Positions 5,032 through 17,935 of a stretch of 30,745 nucleotides of DNA are shown here, one piece after another. The position numbers and the translations under genes are program-made. The stretch comes from Minisyncoccota bacterium (GTDB lineage: Bacteria; Patescibacteriota; Minisyncoccia; Phycocordibacterales; GWA1-40-21). Numbering within the stretch: position 1 is the stretch's first letter; each line of letters starts with the position of its first letter. The notes beneath the pieces were generated by a model. The model saw nothing but the letters and a program-made list of their open reading frames with translations, was not told the DNA's origin and made no database searches. The DNA is taken from the NCBI GenBank assembly GCA_041659365.1, contig JBAZYH010000013.1, positions 1 to 30,745 of the forward strand, in the 5' to 3' direction.

Positions 5032-5106
5032 TCCGGAGTAGCTCAGCGGTAGAGCGGCGAGCTGTTAACTCGTTGGTCGTAGGTTCGATCCCTACCTCCG
5101 GAGCCA
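5032..5106 (+). tRNA. tRNA-Asn (anticodon GTT), CCA encoded
   Basis: Cloverleaf read by hand: acceptor TCCGGAG/CTCCGGA; D-stem GCTC/GAGC; anticodon stem CGAG/CTCG with loop CTGTTAA (GTT); T-arm GTAGG-TTCGATC-CCTAC; discriminator G then CCA. Confidence 0.9.
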
Positions 5107-6567
5107 GGTTGGTTGATATGCCAAATCTAATATACTGTTGTATGGAGAACGTAAGGAAAATTCTATGTTTTTTCCGTTTACAACACAGTTCTGAAGTAGG
5201 TAATTTAGAATTGCTCTTTTTTCAAGCACTTCAGAACTTTCAAATAGTTTAAGTGCATTTTTTGCTAGATTTAATACTGTAGAAACAGTGATATAGTAAT
5301 TTTCATCTGCTTTAGTATGATCTTCAAGTTGAATACTTAGATCATATTGTTTTTCTTTCAATTCTTTCAGAATCTTGTCATAGTTAGACTTAGTAATACT
5401 CTCATCAATAAATAGGTTTAAAATTCTATCTAATTTTATTTGTATAGAATCATACTCTTTTTTAATAGCATCTATCGAATTTTTATTATATAAAGTTTTT
5501 GCAACATTTGTTTTTTTAAGACCTTCAATAATCTTATCAATTTTCTCTTGAGGAATACTATTAAATGCCTCTAGGACCTCGTATATTGGCTTTAGTAGGT
5601 CTTTTTCTGGAACATATACCTTTGTATCACAAATGGCCTTTTTAGCGTTTGTACAAGCATAATAAACGTGACCTTTATGAGTTTCTGGACTCATAGAACA
5701 ACCGCATTTAGCACATCTTGCTAGTCCCCTAAAAATATATGGTTTAGAGGCATACTGGAACTTCTTTTTACCCCAGCTCTTCCTAATTTGTTGACACCTA
5801 TCAAATAACTCTTTGGTTATTAAAGGCTCATATTTATGATTCCAAGAAATATTTTTAGTTCTTGAATAAGATACACCATAATAAAAAGTATCATTAAGTA
5901 TTTTATCTATCATACTAAGTGATAATTTTTTATCATTTTTACTTCTTAAACCAAGCTTGGTTATTTCTTTCATTAAGGTAATAGTTGAATGATTACCAGT
6001 CGAATATAACTCAAACATTTTCTTAATATAATGTGATGTATCCGGATCCAAAACTACATCTATCTTTTTGCCATTTGTATTATATAAACTTTTATAACCG
6101 ATTGGGGGTTTGCCTGTACATTCCCCATTTTTACGCATTTGTTCCTGCTTTCTTTTAACATTATCACTCAGTTGAAGTACGTAACTTTTTGCAAACATTA
6201 CAGCCATATCCCAACGTAAAATATCAGAGCTATTTGACTCTTTATGAAGTACAAGATTTTCTCGATAGAAATGTATCTCGATCTTACCAGCTTTTCTTAG
6301 TAAATCTAGTTGGACCGACTCCTTGAAACTTCTTTGAAGACGATCTACTGTATCAACAACTAGAGCTATGATTTCTTTTGAATCTTGGATGCTCTTAATA
6401 ACTTCCTGAAACTTTTCTCGATCACCTTTAGTAGAAGATTCCTCTATTTCAACTGTTTTCCAAATAGTAAGTCCTTTAAATTTCACATAATCAGATACAC
6501 GAACAACTTGAGCTTCGTTTGAATCTTGTTTTTTGTCTGAAACTCTCGCTAGAATTATTGCTTTCAT
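5092..6567 (-). CDS. Large serine recombinase (resolvase/invertase N-domain + recombinase domain + zinc ribbon + coiled coil); putative island integrase
   Basis: MKAIILARVSDKKQ (catalytic Ser motif), CAKCGCSM...C zinc ribbon, C-terminal coiled-coil. Last 5 codons (QPTWLRR*) overlap the tRNA-Asn 3' end 5092-5106. The ORF-track start at 6642 is an upstream extension; Met at 6567 precedes the resolvase motif. Confidence 0.85.
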   Translation of the reverse strand: MKAIILARVSDKKQDSNEAQVVRVSDYVKFKGLTIWKTVEIEESSTKGDREKFQEVIKSIQDSKEIIALVVDTVDRLQRSFKESVQLDLLRKAGKIEIHFYRENLVLHKESNSSDILRWDMAVMFAKSYVLQLSDNVKRKQEQMRKNGECTGKPPIGYKSLYNTNGKKIDVVLDPDTSHYIKKMFELYSTGNHSTITLMKEITKLGLRSKNDKKLSLSMIDKILNDTFYYGVSYSRTKNISWNHKYEPLITKELFDRCQQIRKSWGKKKFQYASKPYIFRGLARCAKCGCSMSPETHKGHVYYACTNAKKAICDTKVYVPEKDLLKPIYEVLEAFNSIPQEKIDKIIEGLKKTNVAKTLYNKNSIDAIKKEYDSIQIKLDRILNLFIDESITKSNYDKILKELKEKQYDLSIQLEDHTKADENYYITVSTVLNLAKNALKLFESSEVLEKRAILNYLLQNCVVNGKNIEFSLRSPYNSILDLAYQPTWLRR

Positions 6568-6571
6568 AAAA

Positions 6572-8110
6572 TTATCTTTTTTGGTAAAATTCCGAGTTAT
6601 TAGTTTCAAGTTTTGAGATAAAATCCTCAATAGAAAAAGCAAATATAATCAATTTATCTTTATGTTCTATAAATTGAATCCACTTAATTGTATCTTCATG
6701 AATTTTTGGTGCAATAAAAAATGAAATACTCTCATTATTTTTAATCTTTTTATCTGCTAAATGCCTACTTATTGGTGCCATTTCTCTCGATACCTGTGCT
6801 GTCCCATTTAATAATGTTACTTCTAATAAACTACAACGTGTTGCTTCATAACATTCAATATCAGCATTGTTTCCAGGTGCGTGCGAAGAAGGAAGTCCTT
6901 CATCATCAGAAATGTAATTAGGAACTATCTTAATAGAAGGATATTTATTTAATACCGCCAAAGAGGTTAAAAATTCTAAACGTAATGGACTTTGTATATA
7001 TTTAAGAATCTCGTCTTTCGAAGAATTGTTTGTTTTTGTCAGATTAAGCATTTCTTCCTTAATTTTATTCCAGCTATAATATTCGGACCATTTTGAAAGT
7101 AATTTATTTTCTTCTTCAATATTAATTTTCTTAGCAAGTCCTAGCGATAAAAGATTTTGATCTATTTGTGATATATAATTAAAATAGTCTTTTTCGTTAG
7201 TGTATTTATTATACTTGTAATATTTATCAATTACGTAATCAATTTTTTGTAGTTCTTTTTTGTTTATATCAATAAATTGACCATAACCTCTAATTGTTAT
7301 TAGACCAGTAAGTCTCATTTTACGGATAAATTCATCTGGTAACTCTTGCATTATTGTTTCATTTTTTTGAGAGTTGTGACGACCACCAATAAGTTCATCA
7401 CAAACTTCAAGAATTACCTCCCAACTTGGTTGATATTTATGTTTATTTCTTATTTCTTTTATTTTTTTATATAAAGAGTCTACATCATCATCTCTCCAAC
7501 AAAGAATAAGTGGAAGTTCTAATTTTGATATTCCGGTATCATTGTATTCTGGGTCATTATCCAACCTTTTTATTACAGATAATAATAAAATTAGAGGCAC
7601 GTTCTCATTTAAAACCCTTCTAAATGGGTTATTTGATTGGTACTTCACAAAAGCATTTAAAAAGGCCTGTTGTTCAAATTCCGGATGTTCATTATCAGCA
7701 AATTTTAACCCAATTTCAGAAAATTCAATTGGCTCATCCATTTGGTAAAACACGAAACCAAGTTCTTTAGAAATTTTATAATGAGTATCAAACCTTGATG
7801 CCCACCCCCTATTAAAGCCGGCTTCCTTATGATCCTGTGGATTGTTAGACAAAACATCATTTACTTCCTCACTAGTAAGTTCTTCTTCGTTGACCCACTT
7901 GTTTTTAATAGAAGCGCTTACTTTCATTGGACGATATAACCCAAATTTAATTAAATCACCCTCAATACATTCAGCTAATTCGTTTGTTAAAATTTCCTTA
8001 TTATATTTTTTTAAAATATTTAAAAATCCTTTTATCCTCTCGGGATTTCTTACTGTTGTCGTAAATAACAAGGGTTTATATTGAGATTTTCTTTTGTTGG
8101 TTTTTGTCAT
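6572..8110 (-). CDS. Type IIS restriction endonuclease, AlwI family (N.BstNBI/PleI/MlyI-like)
   Basis: 512 aa. The N-terminal TTTVRNPERIKGFL motif resembles the conserved SPRSPEKI N-terminal motif of AlwI-family enzymes. Operon position next to two DNA MTases. Confidence 0.65.
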   Translation of the reverse strand: MTKTNKRKSQYKPLLFTTTVRNPERIKGFLNILKKYNKEILTNELAECIEGDLIKFGLYRPMKVSASIKNKWVNEEELTSEEVNDVLSNNPQDHKEAGFNRGWASRFDTHYKISKELGFVFYQMDEPIEFSEIGLKFADNEHPEFEQQAFLNAFVKYQSNNPFRRVLNENVPLILLLSVIKRLDNDPEYNDTGISKLELPLILCWRDDDVDSLYKKIKEIRNKHKYQPSWEVILEVCDELIGGRHNSQKNETIMQELPDEFIRKMRLTGLITIRGYGQFIDINKKELQKIDYVIDKYYKYNKYTNEKDYFNYISQIDQNLLSLGLAKKINIEEENKLLSKWSEYYSWNKIKEEMLNLTKTNNSSKDEILKYIQSPLRLEFLTSLAVLNKYPSIKIVPNYISDDEGLPSSHAPGNNADIECYEATRCSLLEVTLLNGTAQVSREMAPISRHLADKKIKNNESISFFIAPKIHEDTIKWIQFIEHKDKLIIFAFSIEDFISKLETNNSEFYQKR

Positions 8111-8124
8111 AAATAAAATTTATA

Positions 8125-8865
8125 TTATTTTACTAATTTTAATATTTCCAATGTATCAAGTGAATCACTAAAAGGAACTACACGATAAGAAGATTTTGTT
8201 GTTAACCTGGCATTACTAATTTCTCCATCTGGAATAAAGTCCTTAATGATGGATATATTATTATCTGTCATCATTTCCCAAGTAGCACCACCAGTTAAAT
8301 AAACTTCAAAACCATCTAGTTTAAGATTTTCTAAAACTAAAGAACTATCAAATGGAAATAGAGTTCTAACGTAAAAATCTTTTTGTATTTCTTCGGGTTT
8401 ATAATTATTATTATATGGTCCAATAACATCAAACTGATAATTAGGATGACATATTGCAAATTTTATTCCATTTCTTGGAAATGACGACCTTACTTCAATT
8501 TTTTTTGAATTTGATATGATTTTTAAATCAATTTGATTATTTGCTCCTTCAAAAGGAGTTTCTGAAACGGTTTCCTTATCTAAGTTTAAAATTTTTTTCC
8601 AGGCATATTCTGCTATTACGCCGGCAACACAATTTGTTTTTATTCTGTACTCATTTCTAGATAGTGTGGCATTATTTGCAGTACCAGCGTTTACATTTAT
8701 AGATAACTCGTTACCTTTTTTAATTAATTCATCCAAACATAATCTATCATCTTTGTCTGATTTATAATTAAAAATAACCTTAATCAAATTAAATGGTTTT
8801 GTACGTTTAGAGTTTTCATATTTTATATCATTCTGGCAGACTATTTGTTCTTGTATTATTTTCAT
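8125..8865 (-). CDS. Hypothetical protein inside the RM operon; candidate second-strand nuclease / small subunit
   Basis: 246-aa ORF translationally coupled (ATGA overlap) to the upstream MTase gene. Contains a possible E...IDLK (D-x-K) nuclease-like motif. No family recognised. Confidence 0.4.
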   Translation of the reverse strand: MKIIQEQIVCQNDIKYENSKRTKPFNLIKVIFNYKSDKDDRLCLDELIKKGNELSINVNAGTANNATLSRNEYRIKTNCVAGVIAEYAWKKILNLDKETVSETPFEGANNQIDLKIISNSKKIEVRSSFPRNGIKFAICHPNYQFDVIGPYNNNYKPEEIQKDFYVRTLFPFDSSLVLENLKLDGFEVYLTGGATWEMMTDNNISIIKDFIPDGEISNARLTTKSSYRVVPFSDSLDTLEILKLVK

Positions 8866-9770
8866 AAATAGTTAGTAATTAAAACCTCTTTAATTTCCTT
8901 GTTTGAATTATTATGATAACTAATATAATTACTTTTTATACAATATACATTATACTTCTTCATCCATTCTATCAACACATTATTCTTTTTTCCTTTATAG
9001 TGAGTTACATTAGATAGTGCAAATTTTACCCCTTTATTATTCAATTCATCTAAGTTTTTTAATAAATCTTTTTCACTATCATCATTCCAAAACTTATTAT
9101 ATTCACTAAAAGTAATAAGATAAGGTGGATCCACGTACACAAAATCATCTTTCTGAAACTTAAGATTAAAAAACCTCCTAAAGTCAACATCCGAAAGTTT
9201 AATCTTCTTATTTTTTACAGTTTCAAAATAATCTTTAAGTGCATTAACAACGTTTTTATTAAAATCAACGTTCCCCACAGGCAAATTAAAGTCACCGGAT
9301 CTATTAAAACGTAACATTCTATTAAAACCGTATATAAGTAAAGTATATAATTCCAATGGCAGTTCTTTCTTCTGGTTGTTAAAATAATTTCTTAAATCAG
9401 TGTATCCTTTTTTATTGAATCTTGCGTAGTACGTCTTTTTCCATAATTTTTTGATTGTAGTTGGAATAATATCTTCTTTATATGATCTAGAAAGATTATA
9501 TTTGGTTATAATTTTTTCAATCTCAACAAAAAATTGATCGTTCTTATCAGAATATGAAATTAATGTGTTATGTAGTCTTATTAAGTTAGTATCAATATCA
9601 TTTAAAAAGTATTTTTTTGCTTTAACATTGAGAAAAACAGTACCACCACCAACAAATGGTTCATAAAAATGGTTTACTTTTAATGGAAATAACTCAATAA
9701 GCTGTTCCATAAGCTTATATTTATCACCAACATAAAATAAGGGGGACCTTTTAATTTTATTTTTTATCAT
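8862..9770 (-). CDS. DNA N6-adenine methyltransferase (Dam/D12 class), M2 of Type IIS system
   Basis: Motif I EPFVGGGTVF and motif IV DPPY, in the Dam-family order. Confidence 0.8.
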   Translation of the reverse strand: MIKNKIKRSPLFYVGDKYKLMEQLIELFPLKVNHFYEPFVGGGTVFLNVKAKKYFLNDIDTNLIRLHNTLISYSDKNDQFFVEIEKIITKYNLSRSYKEDIIPTTIKKLWKKTYYARFNKKGYTDLRNYFNNQKKELPLELYTLLIYGFNRMLRFNRSGDFNLPVGNVDFNKNVVNALKDYFETVKNKKIKLSDVDFRRFFNLKFQKDDFVYVDPPYLITFSEYNKFWNDDSEKDLLKNLDELNNKGVKFALSNVTHYKGKKNNVLIEWMKKYNVYCIKSNYISYHNNSNKEIKEVLITNYL

Positions 9771-10773
9771 AAACTTTTGTTATAAATAACCACTCTTGAT
9801 GATCATCAAAATCTGTTTTTCCACTGTTAAAAAATGGGTGACTTTTTTTATGTATTTCTGTACTACCTTTTTCTTCTAAAATCTTTTGAATTTGTTCTAA
9901 TTTTATTTTATTTTTTGAAGAATTACTCTTAGAATTGTAGGTATTATTATAGGATACAACTATATACTTAGATTTTAAATTTTTTATTAAATCAGCAAAA
10001 ACTTTAGGTGCTTTTACTGTACAGTATTCACTCATGTTTTCAGACTCTGGTTTTAGAGCAACTCCGTATAATTCTTTTTTATTCCACTTAACCAATGTCT
10101 CTAAAAGATGATAAAAACGACTATATTGCCTTGAATTATATGGTGGGTCTATATAAACAACATCTGCTTTTATTTTTTTCGATAAAAAATTTGCATCCTG
10201 TTGAAAAATGGAAACATTTTTAATTTTGGTTGGTACTATTTGTTTGATACATAGTCTTTTATCCCCTATTGTTTTCTTTATATAGGCGTCATAATGTCCA
10301 ACAGTATTAGCGATCTTATCTATTGAGTAAATTAGCGAAGCAAGAATAATGTTATACTCCCTTTTTTTAAGCTTATTTTTCCTTTTTTCTAAATCTTCTC
10401 TTATATAACCTATTATTTTAGAATTTTCTTTTGAAAAATATTTATCTCCAAAGTTTTTTGAGAAATAGTTCTCTTCAATTAACTTTGGATTAAGGTTATT
10501 ATACTCGTCTATTATTTTTTTAACTTTTTTATCACTAAATTCACCCTTACCAAAAAACGCTTCATAACTAACTATATTTGAATATAACAAGTCATTCAAA
10601 ATAATGTGTTTAAATTTTTTTGAAGCCTCTGCCCCAATAACACCTGTTCCTGCAAAAATATCAGCAAAAGTATCACCCTTACAATTCTTTTCTATAAGCG
10701 AAAAAATCCAACTTTTTAGTTTTGCTTTACTACCTATATATCTTCTATTTTCAATGTTTATTAATCCTTCCAT
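9757..10773 (-). CDS. DNA N6-adenine methyltransferase (Dam/D12 class), M1 of Type IIS system
   Basis: N-terminal RYIGSK (Dam-family K-box), FAGTGVIG (motif I), DPPY (motif IV). Confidence 0.8.
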   Translation of the reverse strand: MEGLINIENRRYIGSKAKLKSWIFSLIEKNCKGDTFADIFAGTGVIGAEASKKFKHIILNDLLYSNIVSYEAFFGKGEFSDKKVKKIIDEYNNLNPKLIEENYFSKNFGDKYFSKENSKIIGYIREDLEKRKNKLKKREYNIILASLIYSIDKIANTVGHYDAYIKKTIGDKRLCIKQIVPTKIKNVSIFQQDANFLSKKIKADVVYIDPPYNSRQYSRFYHLLETLVKWNKKELYGVALKPESENMSEYCTVKAPKVFADLIKNLKSKYIVVSYNNTYNSKSNSSKNKIKLEQIQKILEEKGSTEIHKKSHPFFNSGKTDFDDHQEWLFITKVYDKK

Positions 10774-10774
10774 G

Positions 10775-10957
10775 TTATTTTATTTCAACTTTCTCAAGAA
10801 AGCTCTGAAACTCAACCTTGCATATTCTAAATTCTTTACCAATTTTATATGCTTTTAATTTGCCTGATTTTATATAACGATATATCGTCATTACGTTTAC
10901 CTTAAGTTTATTAGCCAAATCTTCGGCCTTATAGAACTCTTCTTCTTTATTATTCAT
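10775..10957 (-). CDS. Excisionase-family / MerR-like helix-turn-helix DNA-binding protein (RM controller or recombination directionality factor candidate)
   Basis: 60 aa. LKVNVMTIYRYIKSGKLKAYKIGKEFRI matches the excisionase-family HTH pattern (L.VS..TIYR.I..G.LPA.RIG.RWRI). Confidence 0.65.
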   Translation of the reverse strand: MNNKEEEFYKAEDLANKLKVNVMTIYRYIKSGKLKAYKIGKEFRICKVEFQSFLEKVEIK

Positions 10958-11429
10958 ATTTTTTTTGAATTATTTTTAATTTTTTATGATCATATTTTTG
11001 AACCACACCATTCTTGTCTATCAAAAACACACTAAGTCTTAATTTATTACATACATAATAAGGAATTTTCTTTAAAGCTATCTTTTCAAAAGACTGTGGA
11101 AAAGCAACACCGTAATTATAACCACCATAAATAGATTTTCTATTTGTATGCATTCTTGAAATTATTTGTCCTAAAGCTGAATTAAGTGAACTACTTATAG
11201 AACCGCTTGGAGATTTTACATTTTCTTTTGGATCACCCTTACATTCCACTAGATAGTACCAACCACAAGGTTTAGGTCTAACTTTTTTTACTTTTATATC
11301 GACACCTTTTTCCCTTAAATCTGTAACTTCAACATTCTTACTACCGAAACCTTCTTTACTTAAAAATTCTCTGACAGATTTTTGAACAAACTCCTCAGAT
11401 ATTATATTTCTAGTAATTTTCATGCTCAT
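10950..11429 (-). CDS. Hypothetical protein with PD-(D/E)xK-like nuclease motif
   Basis: 159 aa; GVDIKVKKVRPKPCGWYYLVECKGD gives D...(19 aa)...E-C-K spacing typical of PD-(D/E)xK nucleases. Confidence 0.4.
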   Translation of the reverse strand: MSMKITRNIISEEFVQKSVREFLSKEGFGSKNVEVTDLREKGVDIKVKKVRPKPCGWYYLVECKGDPKENVKSPSGSISSSLNSALGQIISRMHTNRKSIYGGYNYGVAFPQSFEKIALKKIPYYVCNKLRLSVFLIDKNGVVQKYDHKKLKIIQKKYE

Positions 11430-11684
11430 TTGAGCTGTATTATACTTTACAATTCTTTACACAACAAGCTTATATATTTGATTTTTTAATATTAACAAAT
11501 CTTAACAAATATAAAGTATTATTTTATTAAAAATATGAATTATATGGTTTTAGATCTTGATTTAATATTTTTTTATTTCTTAAGGCTCTTTTTACGTTTT
11601 CTGAGATCATTATTTTTTCATAATTCTTAAAAAACTTTATAAATTCCCTTTTTTGTTTTTTTGTCATATTTTTTATTATTTTAA

Positions 11685-12812
11685 TTAATTATTAACCTTT
11701 ATCCTTAATGGATCAAAACTTTTTATTGTTTGATCTATCTGTTGGACCCATGAATGTAAGGACTGCTTATTTGAAATTTTATTCAAAATCTTTATATCAT
11801 CTGCAAGCCTGTACCAGCTTCTTTGTTTTGTACATCTAGAAAGGATATCTCTTAATTCTCTTATACCTCCTTCATCTTTAGATAAAATGCTTAAACCTAC
11901 CAGAAAAATAGCCTGTTTCCCCTTAATACTCATATTCTCTTTTACTATTTTTCTTATTAGACGTTTAGGGCTATTAATAAGTTCGAATAAAAACAAATTC
12001 TCCCCTTTTATTATCTCTTCCCAATACCAACTTACAATTTTTTGACATACATCCCTTTTAATAATATCTCTAAAGACTGGACGTTCTGTAAAATTCATCT
12101 TTTTCATTACTTCCTTCATCTTTCTTTTACTACTCAACCTTACTTCGAACCTTAGAATCTCAAGAAGTGGCATTTTATTTTTTATTTCTGTAAAAAGTGA
12201 CTTTTGGTATTGTGAAGGGTTTTTATCAATAGCTTTTTTCTTATCCTTTATTATATCGGCAAGTTTGTCGTAGAAAACTATAGAATGACTTTGCGTCCTT
12301 ATTTGTAAGCTTGATCCATCGTTTGAAAAAACAACATCAGTTTTATCAAACTTTTTACTAACATTTATTTTTGATAACTCCTTTATTACCGCACTAGCCG
12401 TATAACCATCAGAAAGAATTATGTTCTTTGAAGGATGAAACGCGGATACTGTAGCAGATTCCAAATTTTTTTGAGATATTATTTCACCCATATTCTTGAG
12501 TCTTTCTTGTAATGTTTTAACTATCAAGGGAAAGTCTAACTCCTCTACTTCATTCAAATTATCACCCTTTATTAATTTAGGAACTGAAAACTCTATATTT
12601 ACCCCCTGCTTGAATTTTTTTGAACTGTTAGATTGAGTAAAACCAGTTAACTTTACACTAGATAGACCCATATTTAGTTCATCTTCAGACGTATTTTTAA
12701 TGCGTTTACAATAACCTTTTCCAGTACTATGTAGGTGCCATTTAGGGAACTTATTATCATTAATTGTTTTTATCTTTTCTCTAGGAACAGATAAAATTAC
12801 TGTATCTATCAT
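11685..12812 (-). CDS. Rolling-circle replication initiator, Rep_trans (pT181 RepC / phage gpII-like) family
   Basis: 375 aa. SIVFYDKLADI resembles the RIYDK/FIRIYNKKQE motif and ILRFEVRLSSKR resembles the LWRVEIELKRD segment of pT181 RepC. Recalled from memory, not searched. Confidence 0.5.
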   Translation of the reverse strand: MIDTVILSVPREKIKTINDNKFPKWHLHSTGKGYCKRIKNTSEDELNMGLSSVKLTGFTQSNSSKKFKQGVNIEFSVPKLIKGDNLNEVEELDFPLIVKTLQERLKNMGEIISQKNLESATVSAFHPSKNIILSDGYTASAVIKELSKINVSKKFDKTDVVFSNDGSSLQIRTQSHSIVFYDKLADIIKDKKKAIDKNPSQYQKSLFTEIKNKMPLLEILRFEVRLSSKRKMKEVMKKMNFTERPVFRDIIKRDVCQKIVSWYWEEIIKGENLFLFELINSPKRLIRKIVKENMSIKGKQAIFLVGLSILSKDEGGIRELRDILSRCTKQRSWYRLADDIKILNKISNKQSLHSWVQQIDQTIKSFDPLRIKVNN

Positions 12813-12892
12813 AAATTTATACTTATATTATCGTTCTTATAATTTTGTGGATTTGTCCTCTTATCGACCTGTAGAAGAATAGAAAAAAGACC

Positions 12893-12912
12893 AATCAGAT
12901 TTTGATCTGATT
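12893..12912. repeat. Perfect inverted repeat AATCAGAT-TTTG-ATCTGATT
   Basis: 8-bp arms, seen directly. Upstream of the Rep gene in a 300-bp non-coding region. Confidence 0.6.
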
Positions 12913-13070
12913 CAAATATCTCTTGTTTTGAAAAATTAGTATCATCTAATTTTTCTATGTTTTCTTTTTTATTCTCTTTATCTTCCACATAGTCGAGTAT
13001 AAAGAAAAAACACCCCTAAGGATGCTCTTGTTAGATTCTTGTTAATTTTGTAACCTCTCACTAATGTTAA

Positions 13071-13134
13071 CAATAGTTAACATTAGTAGAATTAACAAGT
13101 TAGACATCTAACTTGTTAATTCTACTTTTTAAGC
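13071..13134. repeat. Two adjacent perfect palindromes (CTAATGTTAAC-AATA-GTTAACATTAG; TAGAATTAACAAGTTAG-ACAT-CTAACTTGTTAATTCTA): candidate replication origin / operator
   Basis: 11-bp and 17-bp perfect inverted repeats read directly. Located between the Rep_trans gene and the next gene; the second overlaps the stop codon of 13122-14015. Confidence 0.6.
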
Positions 13135-14015
13135 TTTCTGGCTCTTTTTCTGCCCCTTTTTTTAATACAGTCTTTATTTTCTAGAACATTTTGGCAATAA
13201 TTACCTTTATAACCAAATGGTAAAGGCTTTCCACAACTTTTACAATATTTTGATGTCTTATAAAGAGCATATATCTCCTCAGTTACTAATGAATATAAAC
13301 CTCTAGCTATTGCTACTACAATATATTCATCATCATCCTCATCCAACTCTTTTATTTGATTTTTCAAAATTGAATTATCTTCACTATAGGAAATAACACC
13401 ATTATTTATAGAGTGATCTAAAGTCTTCCATAATTCAGAATATGGCACCCTAATATAAAAGACTAGAGGTTCTTTTAGACAAAAGATATTTTCCCATATA
13501 CTTACCTCACCATTCATCACTCTTTTAAAGTTTTCATCTATTATGGATCCAAATTTAATCAAAGAAGCTTCATCGTAATTTTTTAAATAAAGTTCTTTTA
13601 TTATATTTTCTTTTTTTAATCCATGTGAAATTCTCCAGAATAAAGGTACCTCTAACATACCCTCATAACTATATAAGCTCAAACTAAATGCTTCTCCCTC
13701 TGTCTTCCTACTTCCAAACATAGGAATGTTTTGTTTTAAAATTTCGTAAATATTTTTTTGCCACTCATCAGTATTGCTATTTAATTTTGGGAGAACACAA
13801 AGTTTATTATTATTACCATCTATACATTCAGTAGATACATATTTAATAGATAAATCATCTAGTGAAATTGGAGTTTTTTTAAGATATTCAAGAAGTTGAT
13901 ATGATAAAGATCCTCTTTTTGATAAATCAAAATCATTATTAGCTTTAATAATATCCTTAGTTTCAGATATCACTATTGCATATCTTATGGGAAATCTATC
14001 GGGTAGACTTTTCAT
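13122..14015 (-). CDS. Hypothetical protein with C-terminal Cys-rich (CxxC...C) ribbon and basic tail
   Basis: 297-aa intact ORF; YCKSCGKPLPFGYKGNYCQNV...KKRGRKRARKLKK at the C-terminus. Confidence 0.45.
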   Translation of the reverse strand: MKSLPDRFPIRYAIVISETKDIIKANNDFDLSKRGSLSYQLLEYLKKTPISLDDLSIKYVSTECIDGNNNKLCVLPKLNSNTDEWQKNIYEILKQNIPMFGSRKTEGEAFSLSLYSYEGMLEVPLFWRISHGLKKENIIKELYLKNYDEASLIKFGSIIDENFKRVMNGEVSIWENIFCLKEPLVFYIRVPYSELWKTLDHSINNGVISYSEDNSILKNQIKELDEDDDEYIVVAIARGLYSLVTEEIYALYKTSKYCKSCGKPLPFGYKGNYCQNVLENKDCIKKRGRKRARKLKK

Positions 14016-14064
14016 TACTTTACTTTACTTTACAACATGAAGAATATCAAGCTATACTTTGACC

Positions 14065-15381
14065 ATGGAAGAAAATAAACCATACACAGTTTCTAATTAT
14101 ATTGAACTAATAAATTCTACTTTAGAAGGACTTTTTGCTGATATTATTGGTGAAATTAGTGAACTTAAAATAGCTAGTAGTGGACATATTTATCTTACAC
14201 TTAAAGATAAAGATACTGGCTATATTTTACCCTGTACCATATGGAAACGTGACTATGATTTAATCGCCATAAAACTAGAAGTTGGGATGGAGATTTTGGT
14301 TAGAGGTAAGCCAGATTTCTATGGACCCTTTGGTAAACTATCGTTTATTGCAAAACATGCAGAATTGGTTGGTGAAGGTGCTTTAAAAAAGGCTTATGAT
14401 GAACTTAAAAAGAAATTAACTTCCGAAGGTTTATTTGAACAATCAAGAAAGAAGCCTATACCATTGTTTCCACAAAAGATTGGTGTAATTACATCTTTAC
14501 ACGGTGCTGTAATACATGATTTTAGTAATAATTTAAAGAAGTTCGGTTTTAAGGTAAAGATTGTTGATTCAAAGGTTGAAGGTCCAGAATCTGGAAAATT
14601 TCTCACACTAGCTGTTCGTTATTTTAAAAAGCAAGATATCGATGTCTTAGTCTTAATTAGAGGTGGTGGCTCAATGCAATCATTAGCTGGGTTTGATAAT
14701 GAAGCTTTGGTTAGAGAGATATCATCATTTCCAGTCCCGGTAATAACTGGCATTGGTCATCATAAGGATATACCATTAGCAACCTTAGTATCTGATGCTT
14801 CTGAATCAACTCCATCACTTGTAGCAACTTTATTGAATAAGTCATGGGAAGAGGCCGTATACTCGATAGATAAAAAACAATCAAATATTTTAAATATATA
14901 CAGTAATTGGTTAGAAAACTTTTCTCAAAAAATAGAATCATCGTTTAGAAAAATTAATTCATTTTTAAACAATATTATTGAAAAACATAAAAAAGCAAAA
15001 GAATTATTAAGAAATGCAACAGGTAGAATATCACTTCAAATAAGGCTTGATAGAAAAAAATTGATTGGGATACAAACGGATATTTTAAGTGGTTTTAAAA
15101 GTACAACCGAAATGATAAGAATTGATAAAATACCTAATACTGGAAAAAGAATTATAGAGTTATGTTTAAGAGGTTGTAAGAAGATATCAGATAAGATCAA
15201 AGATATTTCAAAATTAATAGAGTCGAATGATCCAGATAAGTTACTAAAATTAGGTTATAGTATTATTTCTAATAGTAAAGGTATAATTAAAAGTATAAAA
15301 GATATTAAAATAGGTGAAAATATAGAGATAAATGTTTTTGATGGTAAAATTTTATCAGAAGTTAAGAATATAAATAAATAA
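14065..15381 (+). CDS. xseA: Exodeoxyribonuclease VII large subunit
   Basis: N-terminal OB-fold region (YTVSNYIELINSTLEG...GEISELK) and catalytic region; length and order match XseA. ATG at 14065 is preferred over the ORF-track TTG at 14059. Confidence 0.8.
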   Translation: MEENKPYTVSNYIELINSTLEGLFADIIGEISELKIASSGHIYLTLKDKDTGYILPCTIWKRDYDLIAIKLEVGMEILVRGKPDFYGPFGKLSFIAKHAELVGEGALKKAYDELKKKLTSEGLFEQSRKKPIPLFPQKIGVITSLHGAVIHDFSNNLKKFGFKVKIVDSKVEGPESGKFLTLAVRYFKKQDIDVLVLIRGGGSMQSLAGFDNEALVREISSFPVPVITGIGHHKDIPLATLVSDASESTPSLVATLLNKSWEEAVYSIDKKQSNILNIYSNWLENFSQKIESSFRKINSFLNNIIEKHKKAKELLRNATGRISLQIRLDRKKLIGIQTDILSGFKSTTEMIRIDKIPNTGKRIIELCLRGCKKISDKIKDISKLIESNDPDKLLKLGYSIISNSKGIIKSIKDIKIGENIEINVFDGKILSEVKNINK

Positions 15382-17304: not shown

Positions 17305-17410
17305 GCCCACCACATGGTCAACAGCAAAAGCTGTTTATACCGGTTTCCCGATATAGCCTGGAAAGACAACCCCATATGATGGGTTTTTTATGTCTTTCCA
17401 GGACTTTTTT
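17305..17410 (+). ncRNA. Candidate small RNA / orphan intrinsic terminator (GC-rich hairpins ending in U-tract)
   Basis: Hairpin AACAGC-AAAA-GCTGTT (17320-17335). Compound hairpin CCTGGAAAGACA...TGTCTTTCCAGG (17357-17402) followed by CTTTTTTTC. No plus-strand CDS upstream; TATATA at 17293-17298 is a possible -10. Confidence 0.3.
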
Positions 17411-17520
17411 TCATCATGCCAATAATTACTTACTGGTTTAGATTACTTTCAATATTTAGTTGTTTCTTAATTATTACATACAATGGTTTACATTTCAAAT
17501 ATGTTTTAAAGATTTTTATA

Positions 17521-17880
17521 TACTAGCAAATACTAGCAAATACTATTATTTCAATATAATAAAAAATATAACCAAATGTCAGTAAATGTCAGTCTTCCAA
17601 TGTAAACATATGTCAACATTTTTTAAAGTAATATTAATTAAAAATATACTTAAATAATGGTCCACAATGTTAGCATTTGTTAGCATTTTAATATTATCAA
17701 AAGATTAATAAATACTATCAAATACTATCATGCCAGTATGATAGAAATGTAACCAAATGTAAGCAAATGTCAGTATTCCCATGTGAACTTATGTCAACCT
17801 TTTTTAAAGTAATATTAATTAAAAATTTGCTTAAATAATAGTCCATAATGTTAACATTTATTAACATTTAAATTATATAT
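17521..17880. repeat. Two diverged tandem copies of an about 180-bp unit, each containing three short (10-11 bp) tandem doublets (iteron-like)
   Basis: Unit 1 17521-17700 and unit 2 17702-17880, about 85% identical by eye. Doublets in unit 1: TACTAGCAAA x2, AAATGTCAGT x2, TGTTAGCATTT x2. Doublets in unit 2: ATACTATCAA/ATACTATCA, AAATGTAAGC/AAATGTCAGT, TGTTAACATTT/ATTAACATTTA. Confidence 0.75.
17851..17879 (+). promoter_or_regulatory. Putative sigma-70-like promoter of the SIR2-HerA operon (TTAACA-17-TATATA)
   Basis: Hexamers read directly with 17-nt spacing. AT-rich context makes this weak evidence. Confidence 0.3.
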
Positions 17881-17935
17881 ATTGGTGAATTATCCTTTAC
17901 TTTACTTTACTTTACATTTTGTTACTATTTATATA

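What the first reader, a model, noticed from the sequence alone, without database searches (positions are those of the whole stretch)
17521..17935. Iteron-like nested tandem repeats immediately upstream of SIR2-HerA
Two diverged tandem copies of an about 180-bp unit each contain three 10-11 bp tandem doublets (for example TACTAGCAAA x2, AAATGTCAGT x2, TGTTAGCATTT x2). The corresponding doublets in unit 2 are mutated versions. The structure resembles plasmid or phage iterons or arrays of direct-repeat transcription-factor sites. It sits in the 660-bp leader of a defence operon. It could titrate a regulator, act as a replication or partition site of the mobile element, or drive repeat-mediated on/off variation.
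Basis: seen in the sequence. Interest (0 to 1): 0.55.

Follow-up and report, generated by a model that had tools for sequence, protein, structure and literature searches.

The report
Phased 10-bp repeats between divergent promoters
A real but orphan block of nested DNA repeats fills the gap between a conserved small-RNA gene (LOOT) and a SIR2-HerA phage-defence operon in an uncultured CPR bacterium. It most likely serves as a docking array for a DNA-binding protein, but nothing found here proves a function.

Summary
A ~181-bp unit occurs twice in tandem (17504-17880, 85-87% identical). Each unit carries four sets of 10-bp tandem doublets or triplets. Five of the six perfect period-10 doublets in the 30.7-kb window lie here (P≈3e-5 against non-coding DNA only).

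The b, c and d repeats share one core, AATGTnA (P≈0.004). An independent assembly reproduces the region exactly.

The 666-bp gap is not a plain leader. It holds a full-length LOOT RNA gene (Rfam, 82 bits, minus strand) with its own conserved promoter. The repeats fill the ~396 bp between that promoter and the leaderless SIR2-HerA promoter.

The repeats travel with neither neighbour. Six other SIR2-HerA loci and 36-39 other LOOT loci lack them. No match exists in phage, plasmid or viral collections, and the lineage has no sequenced close relative.

Iteron-origin and partition-site criteria are not met: no adjacent Rep or Par gene, no DnaA box, wrong repeat geometry.

Best reading (~0.4): an array of helically phased binding sites for an unidentified regulator. 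Main rival (~0.3): neutral slippage and duplication at the edge of a foreign higher-GC block. Interest is modest.

The parts
17320..17444 (-). LOOT RNA gene (Rfam RF03000), full length. A conserved ~20-nt 5' leader extends to about 17462.
   Evidence: cmscan gives 82.3 bits against a gathering score of 46.4, model positions 1-121 of 121. The leader ACAACTAAATATTGAAAGTAA matches the ACAAYTnAATA...GTAR leaders of other LOOT loci.
17470..17498 (-). Predicted LOOT promoter: -35 TTGAAA (17498-17493), 17-nt spacer, extended -10 TGTAATAAT (17478-17470).
   Evidence: Promoter scan gives 10 of 12 matches with TG. An equivalent TGnTATAAT-type box sits at the same distance in 8 other LOOT loci. Coordinates checked. 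This is a prediction, not a mapped start site.
17486..17495 (-). One extra copy of the repeat motif (AAATGTAAAC), inverted, overlapping the -35 and spacer of the LOOT promoter.
   Evidence: PWM scan score 12.0. This site was not used to build the PWM.
17504..17685 (.). Repeat unit 1 (~182 bp).
   Evidence: TRF period 181, the repeat finder D1/D2, pairwise alignment.
17521..17546 (+). a repeats of unit 1: TACTAGCAAA x2.6. The reverse complement, TTTGCTAGTA, resembles the d repeat TTTGTTAGCA.
17574..17593 (+). b doublet of unit 1: AAATGTCAGT x2 (perfect). It is preceded by a degenerate third copy, AAATATAACC, at 17564.
17598..17617 (+). c doublet of unit 1: CAATGTAAAC ATATGTCAAC.
17619..17645 (.). 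27-bp all-A/T core, TTTTTTAAAGTAATATTAATTAAAAAT, identical in both units (second copy at 17800-17826). It is the centre of a weak 48-bp palindrome.
   Evidence: Gapless alignment, inverted repeats I4/I5, coordinates.
17665..17684 (+). d doublet of unit 1: CAATGTTAGC ATTTGTTAGC.
17686..17880 (.). Repeat unit 2 (~195 bp), containing a' 17710-17730 (AAATACTATC x2.1), b' 17745-17774 (AAATGTAACC AAATGTAAGC AAATGTCAGT), c' 17779-17798 and d' 17846-17865 (TAATGTTAAC ATTTATTAAC).
17895..17928 (+). Predicted SIR2-HerA core promoter: (CTTTA)x4.2 covering the -35 region (17895-17915) and an extended -10, TGtTACTAT (17920-17928). It would give a leaderless mRNA starting at the ATG at 17936.
   Evidence: TRF. 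The same (CTTTA)n + -10 + ATG layout occurs at xseA (14007-14065) and upstream of the 79% SIR2 homologue in L002. This is an inference, not a mapped start site.
17936..18997 (+). SIR2 gene of the SIR2-HerA defence system. The true start is the ATG at 17936, not the TTG at 17882.
   Evidence: Pfam SIR2_2 1.3e-14. PADLOC SIR2 1.7e-47. Homologues align from this ATG.
18990..20711 (+). HerA ATPase gene, overlapping SIR2 by 8 bp.
   Evidence: Pfam DUF87 6.5e-45. PADLOC HerA 7.6e-137.

Best explanation
The nested repeats are a non-coding, cis-acting DNA array. There are about 19 sites of 10 bp, mostly arranged head-to-tail one helical turn apart. Fourteen are b, c and d sites on the plus strand, and most match AATGTnA. 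Five are a-type copies at the left of each unit. The unit-1 a copies read like an inverted d site. The sites sit in two tandem ~181-bp modules that fill the ~396 bp between the divergent promoters of the LOOT RNA gene and the leaderless SIR2-HerA operon.

The proposed mechanism is that a sequence-specific DNA-binding protein binds cooperatively as tandem protomers to adjacent 10-mers. A winged-helix or HTH protein of the kind that reads direct repeats would fit. Such binding would build a nucleoprotein complex that sets the activity of one or both flanking promoters. One inverted motif copy lies inside the LOOT promoter itself.

Shown: the repeat architecture, its clustering, the shared core, the LOOT gene, and the absence of coding or RNA-structure signal. 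Inferred: the two promoters, protein binding, and any regulatory effect. The binding protein is unidentified.
For: - Doublets are extremely clustered: 5 of 6 perfect period-10 doublets in the window, P=3e-5 against non-coding DNA.
- Three sequence-distinct doublet families share AATGTnA on the same strand. P≈0.004 for random 10-mers of this composition, or 0.0006 if the core must contain G/C.
- Motif density is 30 per kb inside the region against 0.4 per kb outside, with no phased pairs outside. One independent extra site lies in the LOOT promoter.
- Changes are concerted. Both a copies carry G in unit 1 and T in unit 2, and both d copies carry G in unit 1 and A in unit 2. At least two copies persist at all four positions in both units despite ~13% divergence between units. 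Simple decay does not predict this.
- The array lies exactly between two predicted promoters.
- The region is not coding. The paralogous small ORFs differ by 5 non-synonymous against 2 synonymous changes and have different stops.
- It is not a structured RNA: fold z-scores are -1.0 and -2.2.
- Architectural analogues exist. In ~80 viral contigs, 10-bp tandem arrays of the very 10-mer AAATGTCAGT (x3-5) sit between a phrog_36 transcriptional-regulator gene and terS.
Against: - There is no conservation evidence. The lineage has no sequenced close relative.
- The array is absent upstream of six other SIR2-HerA loci and 36-39 other LOOT loci.
- Substitutions between the units do not significantly avoid the TGT.A core: 2 of 28 against 16 of 106, P=0.36.
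- No cognate binding protein can be named. The nearby HTH_17, ArsR-like and ECF-sigma genes show no link to the motif.
- Doublet pairs sit on different helical faces relative to one another (b to c 14 bp, c to d 57 bp).
- The viral-contig resemblance is not above background once the one large phage clade is collapsed. Shuffled controls gave 15-16 hits.
- Both promoters are predictions.
Confidence: 0.4

Rival explanations
1. The repeats are a neutral by-product. Replication slippage made 10-bp duplications, and one 181-bp tandem duplication occurred in unconstrained AT-rich (~78% A+T) intergenic DNA. The site is the junction between host DNA and a horizontally acquired higher-GC block. The repeats do nothing.
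For: - The repeats sit exactly where GC jumps from 20-25% to 36-48%, across 17936-27152.
- They are unique to this contig and absent from all comparable loci.
- There is no significant sparing of the motif core.
- Unit 2 doublets are partly decayed.
- This is the longest intergenic region in the window, so it has the most room for such events.
Against: - Clustering remains extreme against non-coding DNA only, P=3e-5.
- Different doublets share one 6-of-7 core, P≈0.004.
- All four doublet positions are kept in both units with concerted variants. Under neutral slippage, contraction to a single copy should be common and hard to reverse.
Confidence: 0.3
2. The repeats are a replication origin or partition site (iterons or centromere) of an integrated or formerly integrated plasmid-like element at the LOOT flank. 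The site may be active or vestigial.
For: - The layout is short direct repeats flanking a 27-bp all-A/T core.
- Other genomes carry mobile-element genes 5' of LOOT.
- In L080 a prim-pol gene next to LOOT is preceded by a 13-bp-period array of 2.8 copies, seen as three TTTTATCTT repeats.
- The adjacent 9-kb block has foreign composition.
Against: - No Rep, Par or primase gene flanks the array.
- There is no DnaA box with <=1 mismatch.
- The repeats are 10-bp doublets of several sequences, not 3-7 copies of one 17-22-bp iteron.
- An all-A/T stretch is unremarkable in DNA that is 78% A+T.
- The window shows no GC-skew switch at this point.
Confidence: 0.12
3. The region is a contingency (phase-variation) locus. 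Gain or loss of 10-bp or 181-bp units switches SIR2-HerA or LOOT expression on and off.
For: - Perfect tandem repeats are slippage-prone.
- b is a doublet in unit 1 and a triplet in unit 2, and a is x2.6 against x2.1. Copy number has therefore changed during evolution.
Against: - The two assemblies are identical.
- The repeats lie upstream of both predicted -35 boxes rather than between -35 and -10 or inside an ORF.
- Two copies is a poor substrate for high-frequency slippage.
Confidence: 0.05
4. Each unit encodes a small protein or a small RNA.
For: - Gene callers placed two small minus-strand ORFs in the Logan contig, one per unit.
- Paralogous 23-aa plus-strand and 35/49-aa minus-strand ORFs exist.
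- The minus-strand fold has z=-2.2.
Against: - The plus-strand ORF pair differs by 5 non-synonymous against 2 synonymous changes.
- The minus-strand ORFs have different stops and lengths.
- There is no Rfam hit other than LOOT at E<=1.
- The plus-strand fold has z=-1.0.
Confidence: 0.03

Closest known systems
Direct-repeat operator arrays read by winged-helix or HTH proteins at one-helical-turn spacing (lambda Xis X1-X1.5-X2 sites, P2 Cox boxes, OmpR/PhoB boxes). Named from my own knowledge.
   Same: Head-to-tail sites with a 10-bp period, a short shared core, several adjacent sites allowing cooperative binding, and a location next to promoters.
   Different: No cognate protein is identified here. 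The sites come as doublets of four sequence variants nested in a duplicated 181-bp module. No integrase or att context adjoins the array.
Tandem 10-bp arrays between the late-regulator gene and terS in ~40-kb phages (IMG/VR contigs such as L199, L192, L264).
   Same: The identical 10-mer, AAATGTCAGT, repeated in tandem with a 10-bp period, just upstream of a TATAAT box and next to a phrog_36 'transcriptional regulator' gene.
   Different: The phages carry 3-5 copies of one sequence, and no phrog_36 homologue is in the window. After collapsing the one clade, hit numbers are close to the shuffled controls at 15-16. This is an analogy, not homology.
Iterons of theta-replicating plasmids and phages (pSC101, R6K, P1 oriR, lambda ori). 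Named from my own knowledge.
   Same: Clustered direct repeats beside an A/T-rich segment in a mobile-DNA context.
   Different: Iterons are 17-22 bp, usually 3-7 copies of one sequence at ~22-bp spacing, next to their rep gene and DnaA boxes. None of these features holds here.
parC-type centromeres (plasmid R1: two sets of five 11-bp direct repeats flanking the par promoter). Named from my own knowledge.
   Same: Roughly one-turn direct repeats on both sides of a central segment, in a promoter region.
   Different: There are no parM/parR or parA/parB genes. The array is doublets rather than runs of five, built from several sequence variants.
SIR2-HerA anti-phage system (PMC11472057, PMC11514289).
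   Same: The downstream operon is a typical two-gene SIR2 + HerA pair.
   Different: Neither the abstracts of those papers nor the six other homologue loci examined here show a dedicated upstream repeat array for this system.

Membership tests
Iteron-type replication origin | Three or more direct copies of one 17-22-bp sequence, typically ~22 bp apart | tested here: not met
   The units are 10 bp, with 2-3 copies each of four different sequences.
Iteron-type replication origin | Cognate initiator (rep) gene adjacent | tested here: not met
   The flanks are LOOT with a 205-aa orphan membrane-like protein on one side and SIR2-HerA on the other. No Rep signature appears in Pfam, PHROGs, NCBIfam or PDB for any neighbouring ORF.
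Iteron-type replication origin | DnaA boxes and an A/T-rich unwinding element | tested here: inconclusive
   No TTATCCACA match with <=1 mismatch. A 27-bp all-A/T core exists, but the whole region is ~78% A+T.
Iteron-type replication origin | Supports replication when Rep is supplied | not testable with these tools
   This needs an experiment.
parC-like or centromere partition site | Adjacent partition ATPase and adaptor genes | tested here: not met
   No ParA, ParM, ParB or ParR domain appears in any ORF examined.
Direct-repeat operator array (winged-helix or HTH binding sites) | Head-to-tail sites about one helical turn apart | tested here: met
   All arrays have a 10-bp period.
Direct-repeat operator array (winged-helix or HTH binding sites) | Shared recognition core among sites | tested here: met
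   AATGTnA is shared by the b, c and d families, P≈0.004. Thirteen of 14 plus-strand sites score >=9.3 bits with the PWM. That score is circular, because the PWM was built from these sites.
Direct-repeat operator array (winged-helix or HTH binding sites) | Sites positioned at or next to the regulated promoter(s) | tested here: inconclusive
   The array fills the space between two predicted promoters, and one site overlaps the LOOT -35 and spacer. The promoters are predictions only.
Direct-repeat operator array (winged-helix or HTH binding sites) | Identified cognate DNA-binding protein | tested here: not met
   The candidates are HTH_17 (10775-10957), the ArsR-like protein (29935-30207) and the ECF sigma (28565-29107). 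None is linked to the motif, and there is no motif upstream of the ECF operon.
Direct-repeat operator array (winged-helix or HTH binding sites) | Sites conserved in orthologous loci | tested here: inconclusive
   No orthologous locus exists in the collections. The array is absent from non-orthologous LOOT and SIR2-HerA loci.
Phase-variable simple-sequence contingency locus | Repeat-number polymorphism within or between populations | tested here: inconclusive
   The only two assemblies are identical and probably share the same reads.
Phase-variable simple-sequence contingency locus | Repeats inside an ORF or between -35 and -10 | tested here: not met
   The units lie upstream of both predicted -35 elements.
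LOOT RNA (Rfam RF03000) | Covariance-model score at or above the curated gathering score, full length | tested here: met
   82.3 bits against 46.4, model positions 1-121 of 121, at 17320-17444 on the minus strand.
SIR2-HerA defence system | Adjacent SIR2-domain and HerA (DUF87) ATPase genes matching the defence-system models | tested here: met
   Pfam SIR2_2 and DUF87. PADLOC SIR2 1.7e-47 and HerA 7.6e-137. The genes overlap by 8 bp.

The most novel reading that the evidence does not exclude
The array is the operator platform of a CPR-specific DNA-binding protein that co-regulates two divergent genes. One is the phylum-wide small RNA LOOT. The other is a horizontally acquired SIR2-HerA abortive-infection operon. 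This would tie expression of a conserved, function-unknown RNA to phage defence in an ultra-small bacterium.
Probability: 0.1. Interest if true: 0.55.

Novelty: new member of a known kind. Interest (0 to 1): 0.3.

Why it matters
If the array is functional, it would be one of the first candidate cis-regulatory elements described in a Patescibacteria (CPR) genome. Transcription control in this group is almost unstudied. It would also give a handle on how an acquired NAD-depleting defence operon is kept in check.

As it stands, the finding is an orphan repeat with no comparative support, so its direct value is limited.

The by-products may be more useful. LOOT RNA, known to me only as a metagenome RNA without an assigned host, turns out to be widespread in CPR genomes. 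It has a conserved promoter and leader, and mobile elements repeatedly neighbour it.

Tried and rejected
1. A gapped LOOT pattern in viral contigs gave 10 hits, none a real LOOT by Rfam.
2. The xseA-based synteny search in metagenomes returned 80 loci at <=54% identity. None had LOOT, shared neighbours or similarity to the repeats.
3. A homologue search with the 205-aa gene next to LOOT found only itself.
4. The unit core and whole region were searched against viral contigs, phages and plasmids. The only hits were weak AT-rich Borreliella matches.
5. A shared binding-protein family with phages was rejected after two shuffled-pattern controls.
6. My first idea, that LOOT itself is the attB of serine-recombinase elements, was weakened. 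tRNA genes abut the recombinase 3' ends in at least five loci, 24-370 bp away, as in the window's own tRNA-Asn pair.
7. TAATGTTAAC as an inverted repeat at 13062-13085 is the stem of a terminator-like hairpin, not an operator.
8. The doublet ATTTGTTAAG/ATTTGTTAAT at 11488-11512, upstream of the HTH_17 operon, is 17 of 22 identical to d'. About 13 such matches are expected by chance (my estimate), so I dropped it.
9. ECF-sigma -35 resemblance (TGTnAAC) was rejected. The motif is not enriched window-wide (23 observed against 17.5 expected) and is absent upstream of the ECF operon.
10. The 11-mer TTTAAATTATA lies at both edges of the high-GC block (17867 and 27203). About one such match is expected by chance, so it is not accepted as an att site.
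11. The small-ORF and structured-RNA readings were rejected.
12. The chromosomal oriC reading was rejected: no dnaA gene, no DnaA boxes and no clean skew switch.

Full report
**Observation**

The window is a 30,745-bp contig of a 'Candidatus Paceibacterota' (CPR/Patescibacteria) MAG.

Tandem Repeats Finder reports a 181-bp period x1.9 copies at 17528-17873 (85% matches, score 524). Within it are seven 10-bp arrays. The repeat finder gives 17564-17697 vs 17745-17878 at 87% identity and extends the duplication leftwards: 17504-65 vs 17686-747 at 71%. I take unit 1 as 17504-17685 and unit 2 as 17686-17880.

Each unit has four repeat positions:
- **a:** TACTAGCAAA x2.6 in unit 1, AAATACTATC x2.1 in unit 2.
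- **b:** AAATGTCAGT x2 in unit 1, AAATGTAACC/AAATGTAAGC/AAATGTCAGT in unit 2.
- **c:** CAATGTAAAC ATATGTCAAC in unit 1, CCATGTGAAC TTATGTCAAC in unit 2.
- **d:** CAATGTTAGC ATTTGTTAGC in unit 1, TAATGTTAAC ATTTATTAAC in unit 2.

A 27-bp all-A/T segment (17619-17645 and 17800-17826) is identical in both units.

Five of the six perfect period-10 doublets in the whole window lie in 17500-17900. That gives P=3e-5 even if doublets were confined to the 5.5 kb of non-coding DNA. The exact 10-mers occur nowhere else in the window. An independent Logan assembly (L190) is 100% identical over 17366-24229, so the architecture is not an assembler quirk.

**Context**

The 666-bp intergenic region is not simply a leader.

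Rfam finds a full-length LOOT RNA (RF03000) at 17320-17444 on the minus strand, at 82.3 bits against a gathering score of 46.4. A sigma-70-like promoter with an extended -10 lies at 17498-17470. Eight other LOOT loci have the same TGnTATAAT-type box and a conserved ~20-nt leader, ACAAYTnAATA...GTAR, at the same distance. This part is therefore native to LOOT.

On the other side, SIR2 starts at the ATG at 17936 (Pfam SIR2_2, PADLOC SIR2 1.7e-47). HerA follows with an 8-bp overlap (DUF87 6.5e-45, PADLOC HerA 7.6e-137).

Just upstream are (CTTTA)x4.2 (17895-17915) and TGtTACTAT (17920-17928). The same (CTTTA)n, -10, ATG layout precedes xseA (14007-14065). It also precedes the 79%-identical SIR2 homologue in L002. 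I read this as the core promoter of a leaderless mRNA. That is an inference.

The repeats thus fill the ~396 bp between two divergent predicted promoters. One extra inverted motif copy (AAATGTAAAC, 17486-17495) overlaps the LOOT -35 and spacer.

GC content is 20-25% across the repeats and 36-48% from 17936 to about 27150. The array therefore sits at the edge of a compositionally foreign block: SIR2-HerA, a major-vault-protein-shoulder-domain protein and unknown ORFs.

**Which neighbour do the repeats belong to?**

They belong to neither neighbour in any detectable way.

*SIR2-HerA.* The closest homologue locus (L002) has a 63-bp upstream region containing only (CTTTA)n. Five further independent loci (L003/4, L005, L329, L331, L333) show no comparable repeats.

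*LOOT.* A LOOT-derived pattern scanned over GTDB species genomes gave 94 loci. Of these, 37 pass a structural filter, and 17 of 17 tested pass Rfam's threshold at 73-105 bits. Short tandem doublets are not enriched 5' of these LOOTs: 0.28 per kb against 0.32 per kb elsewhere, compared with 8 in 600 bp in the window. TRF on 1.2-kb 5' flanks of 39 such loci finds nothing similar.

*Close relatives.* No close relative of the lineage exists. XseA relatives are <=54% identical and show no synteny. The 205-aa gene beside LOOT is an orphan.

*Other collections.* The unit core and the whole region have no match in viral contigs, phage records or plasmids.

**Evidence for one motif and for function**

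The b, c and d families share AATGTnA on the same strand. P≈0.004 for three random 10-mers of this composition in any register, or 0.0006 if the core must contain G/C. The reverse complement of a (TTTGCTAGTA) resembles d (TTTGTTAGCA).

A PWM built from the sites finds 30 sites per kb inside the region against 0.4 per kb outside, with no phased pairs outside. This figure is partly circular.

Both a copies differ between units by the same G>T change, and both d copies by the same G>A change. At least two copies persist at all four positions despite ~13% divergence between units. That pattern suggests homogenisation or selection rather than simple decay.

Against function, substitutions between the units do not significantly avoid the TGT.A core: 2 of 28 against 16 of 106, P=0.36.

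Coding and RNA readings fail:
- The paralogous small ORFs show 5 non-synonymous against 2 synonymous changes and have different stops.
- Fold z-scores are -1.0 and -2.2.
- No Rfam family other than LOOT hits at E<=1.

**Analogy from phages**

The degenerate doublet pattern AAATGTNAGY x2 hits 107 viral contigs. Eighty-one belong to one clade of ~40-kb phages, in which AAATGTCAGT x3-5 sits between a phrog_36 'transcriptional regulator' gene and terS/terL, about 24 nt before a TATAAT. Other lineages carry related arrays next to sigma-like genes, terS or an integrase.

Two composition-matched shuffled controls gave 15-16 hits. Once the big clade is collapsed, the recurrence is not clearly above background. 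I use this only as an architectural analogy: 10-bp tandem arrays as regulator sites at promoters. It is not evidence of a shared protein.

**Alternatives**

*Iteron origin or partition site.* No Rep, Par or primase gene is adjacent. There is no DnaA box with <=1 mismatch. The repeat geometry is wrong, and there is no skew switch.

*Phase variation.* The assemblies are identical, and the repeats lie outside the -35/-10 spacers.

*Neutral slippage at an island junction.* This remains a serious rival (~0.3).

*Candidate binders.* HTH_17 (10775-10957), an ArsR-like protein (29935-30207) and an ECF sigma (28565-29107) show no link to the motif.

**Verdict**

The repeat architecture is real and statistically striking, but it is an orphan.

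The best-supported mechanism (~0.4) is an array of helically phased binding sites for an unidentified DNA-binding protein, controlling the divergent LOOT and SIR2-HerA promoters. It is a new member of a known kind of element. The iteron and centromere labels fail their defining tests. Interest is modest at 0.3.

The side observations on LOOT are listed separately: its CPR host range, its conserved promoter and leader, and its recurrent neighbourhood of serine-recombinase elements and tRNAs. The defence-system context is as described in PMC11472057 and PMC11514289.

What I state about LOOT's original description (marine metagenomes, no assigned lineage) is from memory. The 2017 paper's main text does not discuss it, and its supplement is not held.

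Noticed in passing
window 17320-17444 (-); loci L016-L103: LOOT RNA (RF03000) is, as far as I recall, described only from ocean metagenomes with no assigned organism. Here it is present in a Paceibacterota MAG. A pattern scan of GTDB species genomes finds ~37 structurally valid copies. Of the 33 with visible record titles, 20 are labelled Patescibacteria/CPR lineages (Saccharibacteria, Paceibacterota, Gottesman-, Taylor-, Sung-, Nomura-, Magasanikbacteria, Minisyncoccia), 8 are unclassified, and 5 carry other phylum labels (all uncultured bins). LOOT looks like a phylum-wide CPR RNA.
   Followed up: partly
L016, L025, L031, L035, L036, L042, L060, L063, L084, L090 and others; window 5032-6642: A large serine recombinase homologous to window 5092-6642 lies within 8 kb of LOOT in 17 of ~37 LOOT loci and in none of ~57 chance-hit loci. 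Seventeen of its 18 copies lie on LOOT's 5' side, mostly divergent, 181-4760 bp away. In at least five loci a tRNA gene abuts the recombinase's 3' end (24-370 bp), as tRNA-Asn does in the window. The recurring layout is LOOT, recombinase element, tRNA. The tRNA rather than LOOT is probably the integration target.
   Followed up: partly
window 17445-17500 (-); 5' flanks of L035, L086, L080, L036, L022, L060, L062: LOOT genes share an extended -10 promoter (TGnTATAAT-like) and a conserved ~20-nt 5' leader, ACAAYTnAATA...GTAR, upstream of position 1 of the Rfam model. The mature or primary RNA may be longer than the Rfam model.
   Followed up: partly
window 14007-14033 and 17895-17915; L002 836-887: (CTTTA)n pentamer runs sit 20-30 bp upstream of the start codons of xseA and SIR2, and upstream of the 79% SIR2 homologue in another low-GC contig. 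Each is followed by a -10-like box 7-8 nt before the ATG. This suggests a lineage-specific promoter design for leaderless mRNAs.
   Followed up: partly
window 5032-14015: A mobile element is integrated at tRNA-Asn. It carries a large serine recombinase whose 3' end overlaps the tRNA, an AlwI-family restriction enzyme, two Dam-like D12 methyltransferases, an HTH_17 excisionase-like ORF, and three ORFs with no detectable family.
   Followed up: partly
window 22320-24869 (+): An 849-aa protein with a major-vault-protein 'shoulder' domain (PF11978, 2.2e-31) lies in the 43-48% GC part of the foreign block downstream of SIR2-HerA. It matches no PADLOC defence model.
   Followed up: no
IMG/VR loci L192, L197-L199, L202, L207, L212 and others: About 80 viral contigs of ~40 kb carry AAATGTCAGT x3-5 in tandem, overlapping the stop codon of a phrog_36 transcriptional-regulator gene and ~24 nt upstream of a TATAAT box preceding terS/terL. 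This is a candidate late-promoter operator array.
   Followed up: partly
L080, ~200-320 bp 5' of LOOT: Three TTTTATCTT repeats (TRF: period 13, 2.8 copies) lie upstream of a 599-aa prim-pol-like gene, next to a tyrosine-recombinase-like ORF. This looks like an integrated plasmid-like element with iteron-like repeats at the LOOT flank. Both gene identities rest on reading the sequences, not on a profile search.
   Followed up: no
window 17867-17877 and 27203-27213: The 11-mer TTTAAATTATA occurs at both edges of the higher-GC block (17936-27152). It could be an insertion-site duplication, but about one such match is expected by chance in this A/T-rich DNA.
   Followed up: partly
window 17366-17393: The two Logan contigs of run SRR18595301 (L001 and L190) overlap by only 28 bp and break inside the LOOT central hairpin. 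This may reflect a graph branch (strain variant) or a palindrome effect.
   Followed up: no
window 28098-30207 (-): A putative stress operon lies to the right of the foreign block: an ArsR-like HTH, a glutaredoxin-like protein, a secreted 126-aa protein, an ECF sigma factor (NCBIfam sigma70-ECF, 2.5e-22) and a possible anti-sigma factor. Only the ECF sigma rests on a profile hit. The ArsR-like and glutaredoxin-like labels come from reading the sequence. The motif TGTnAAC is not found upstream of it.
   Followed up: partly
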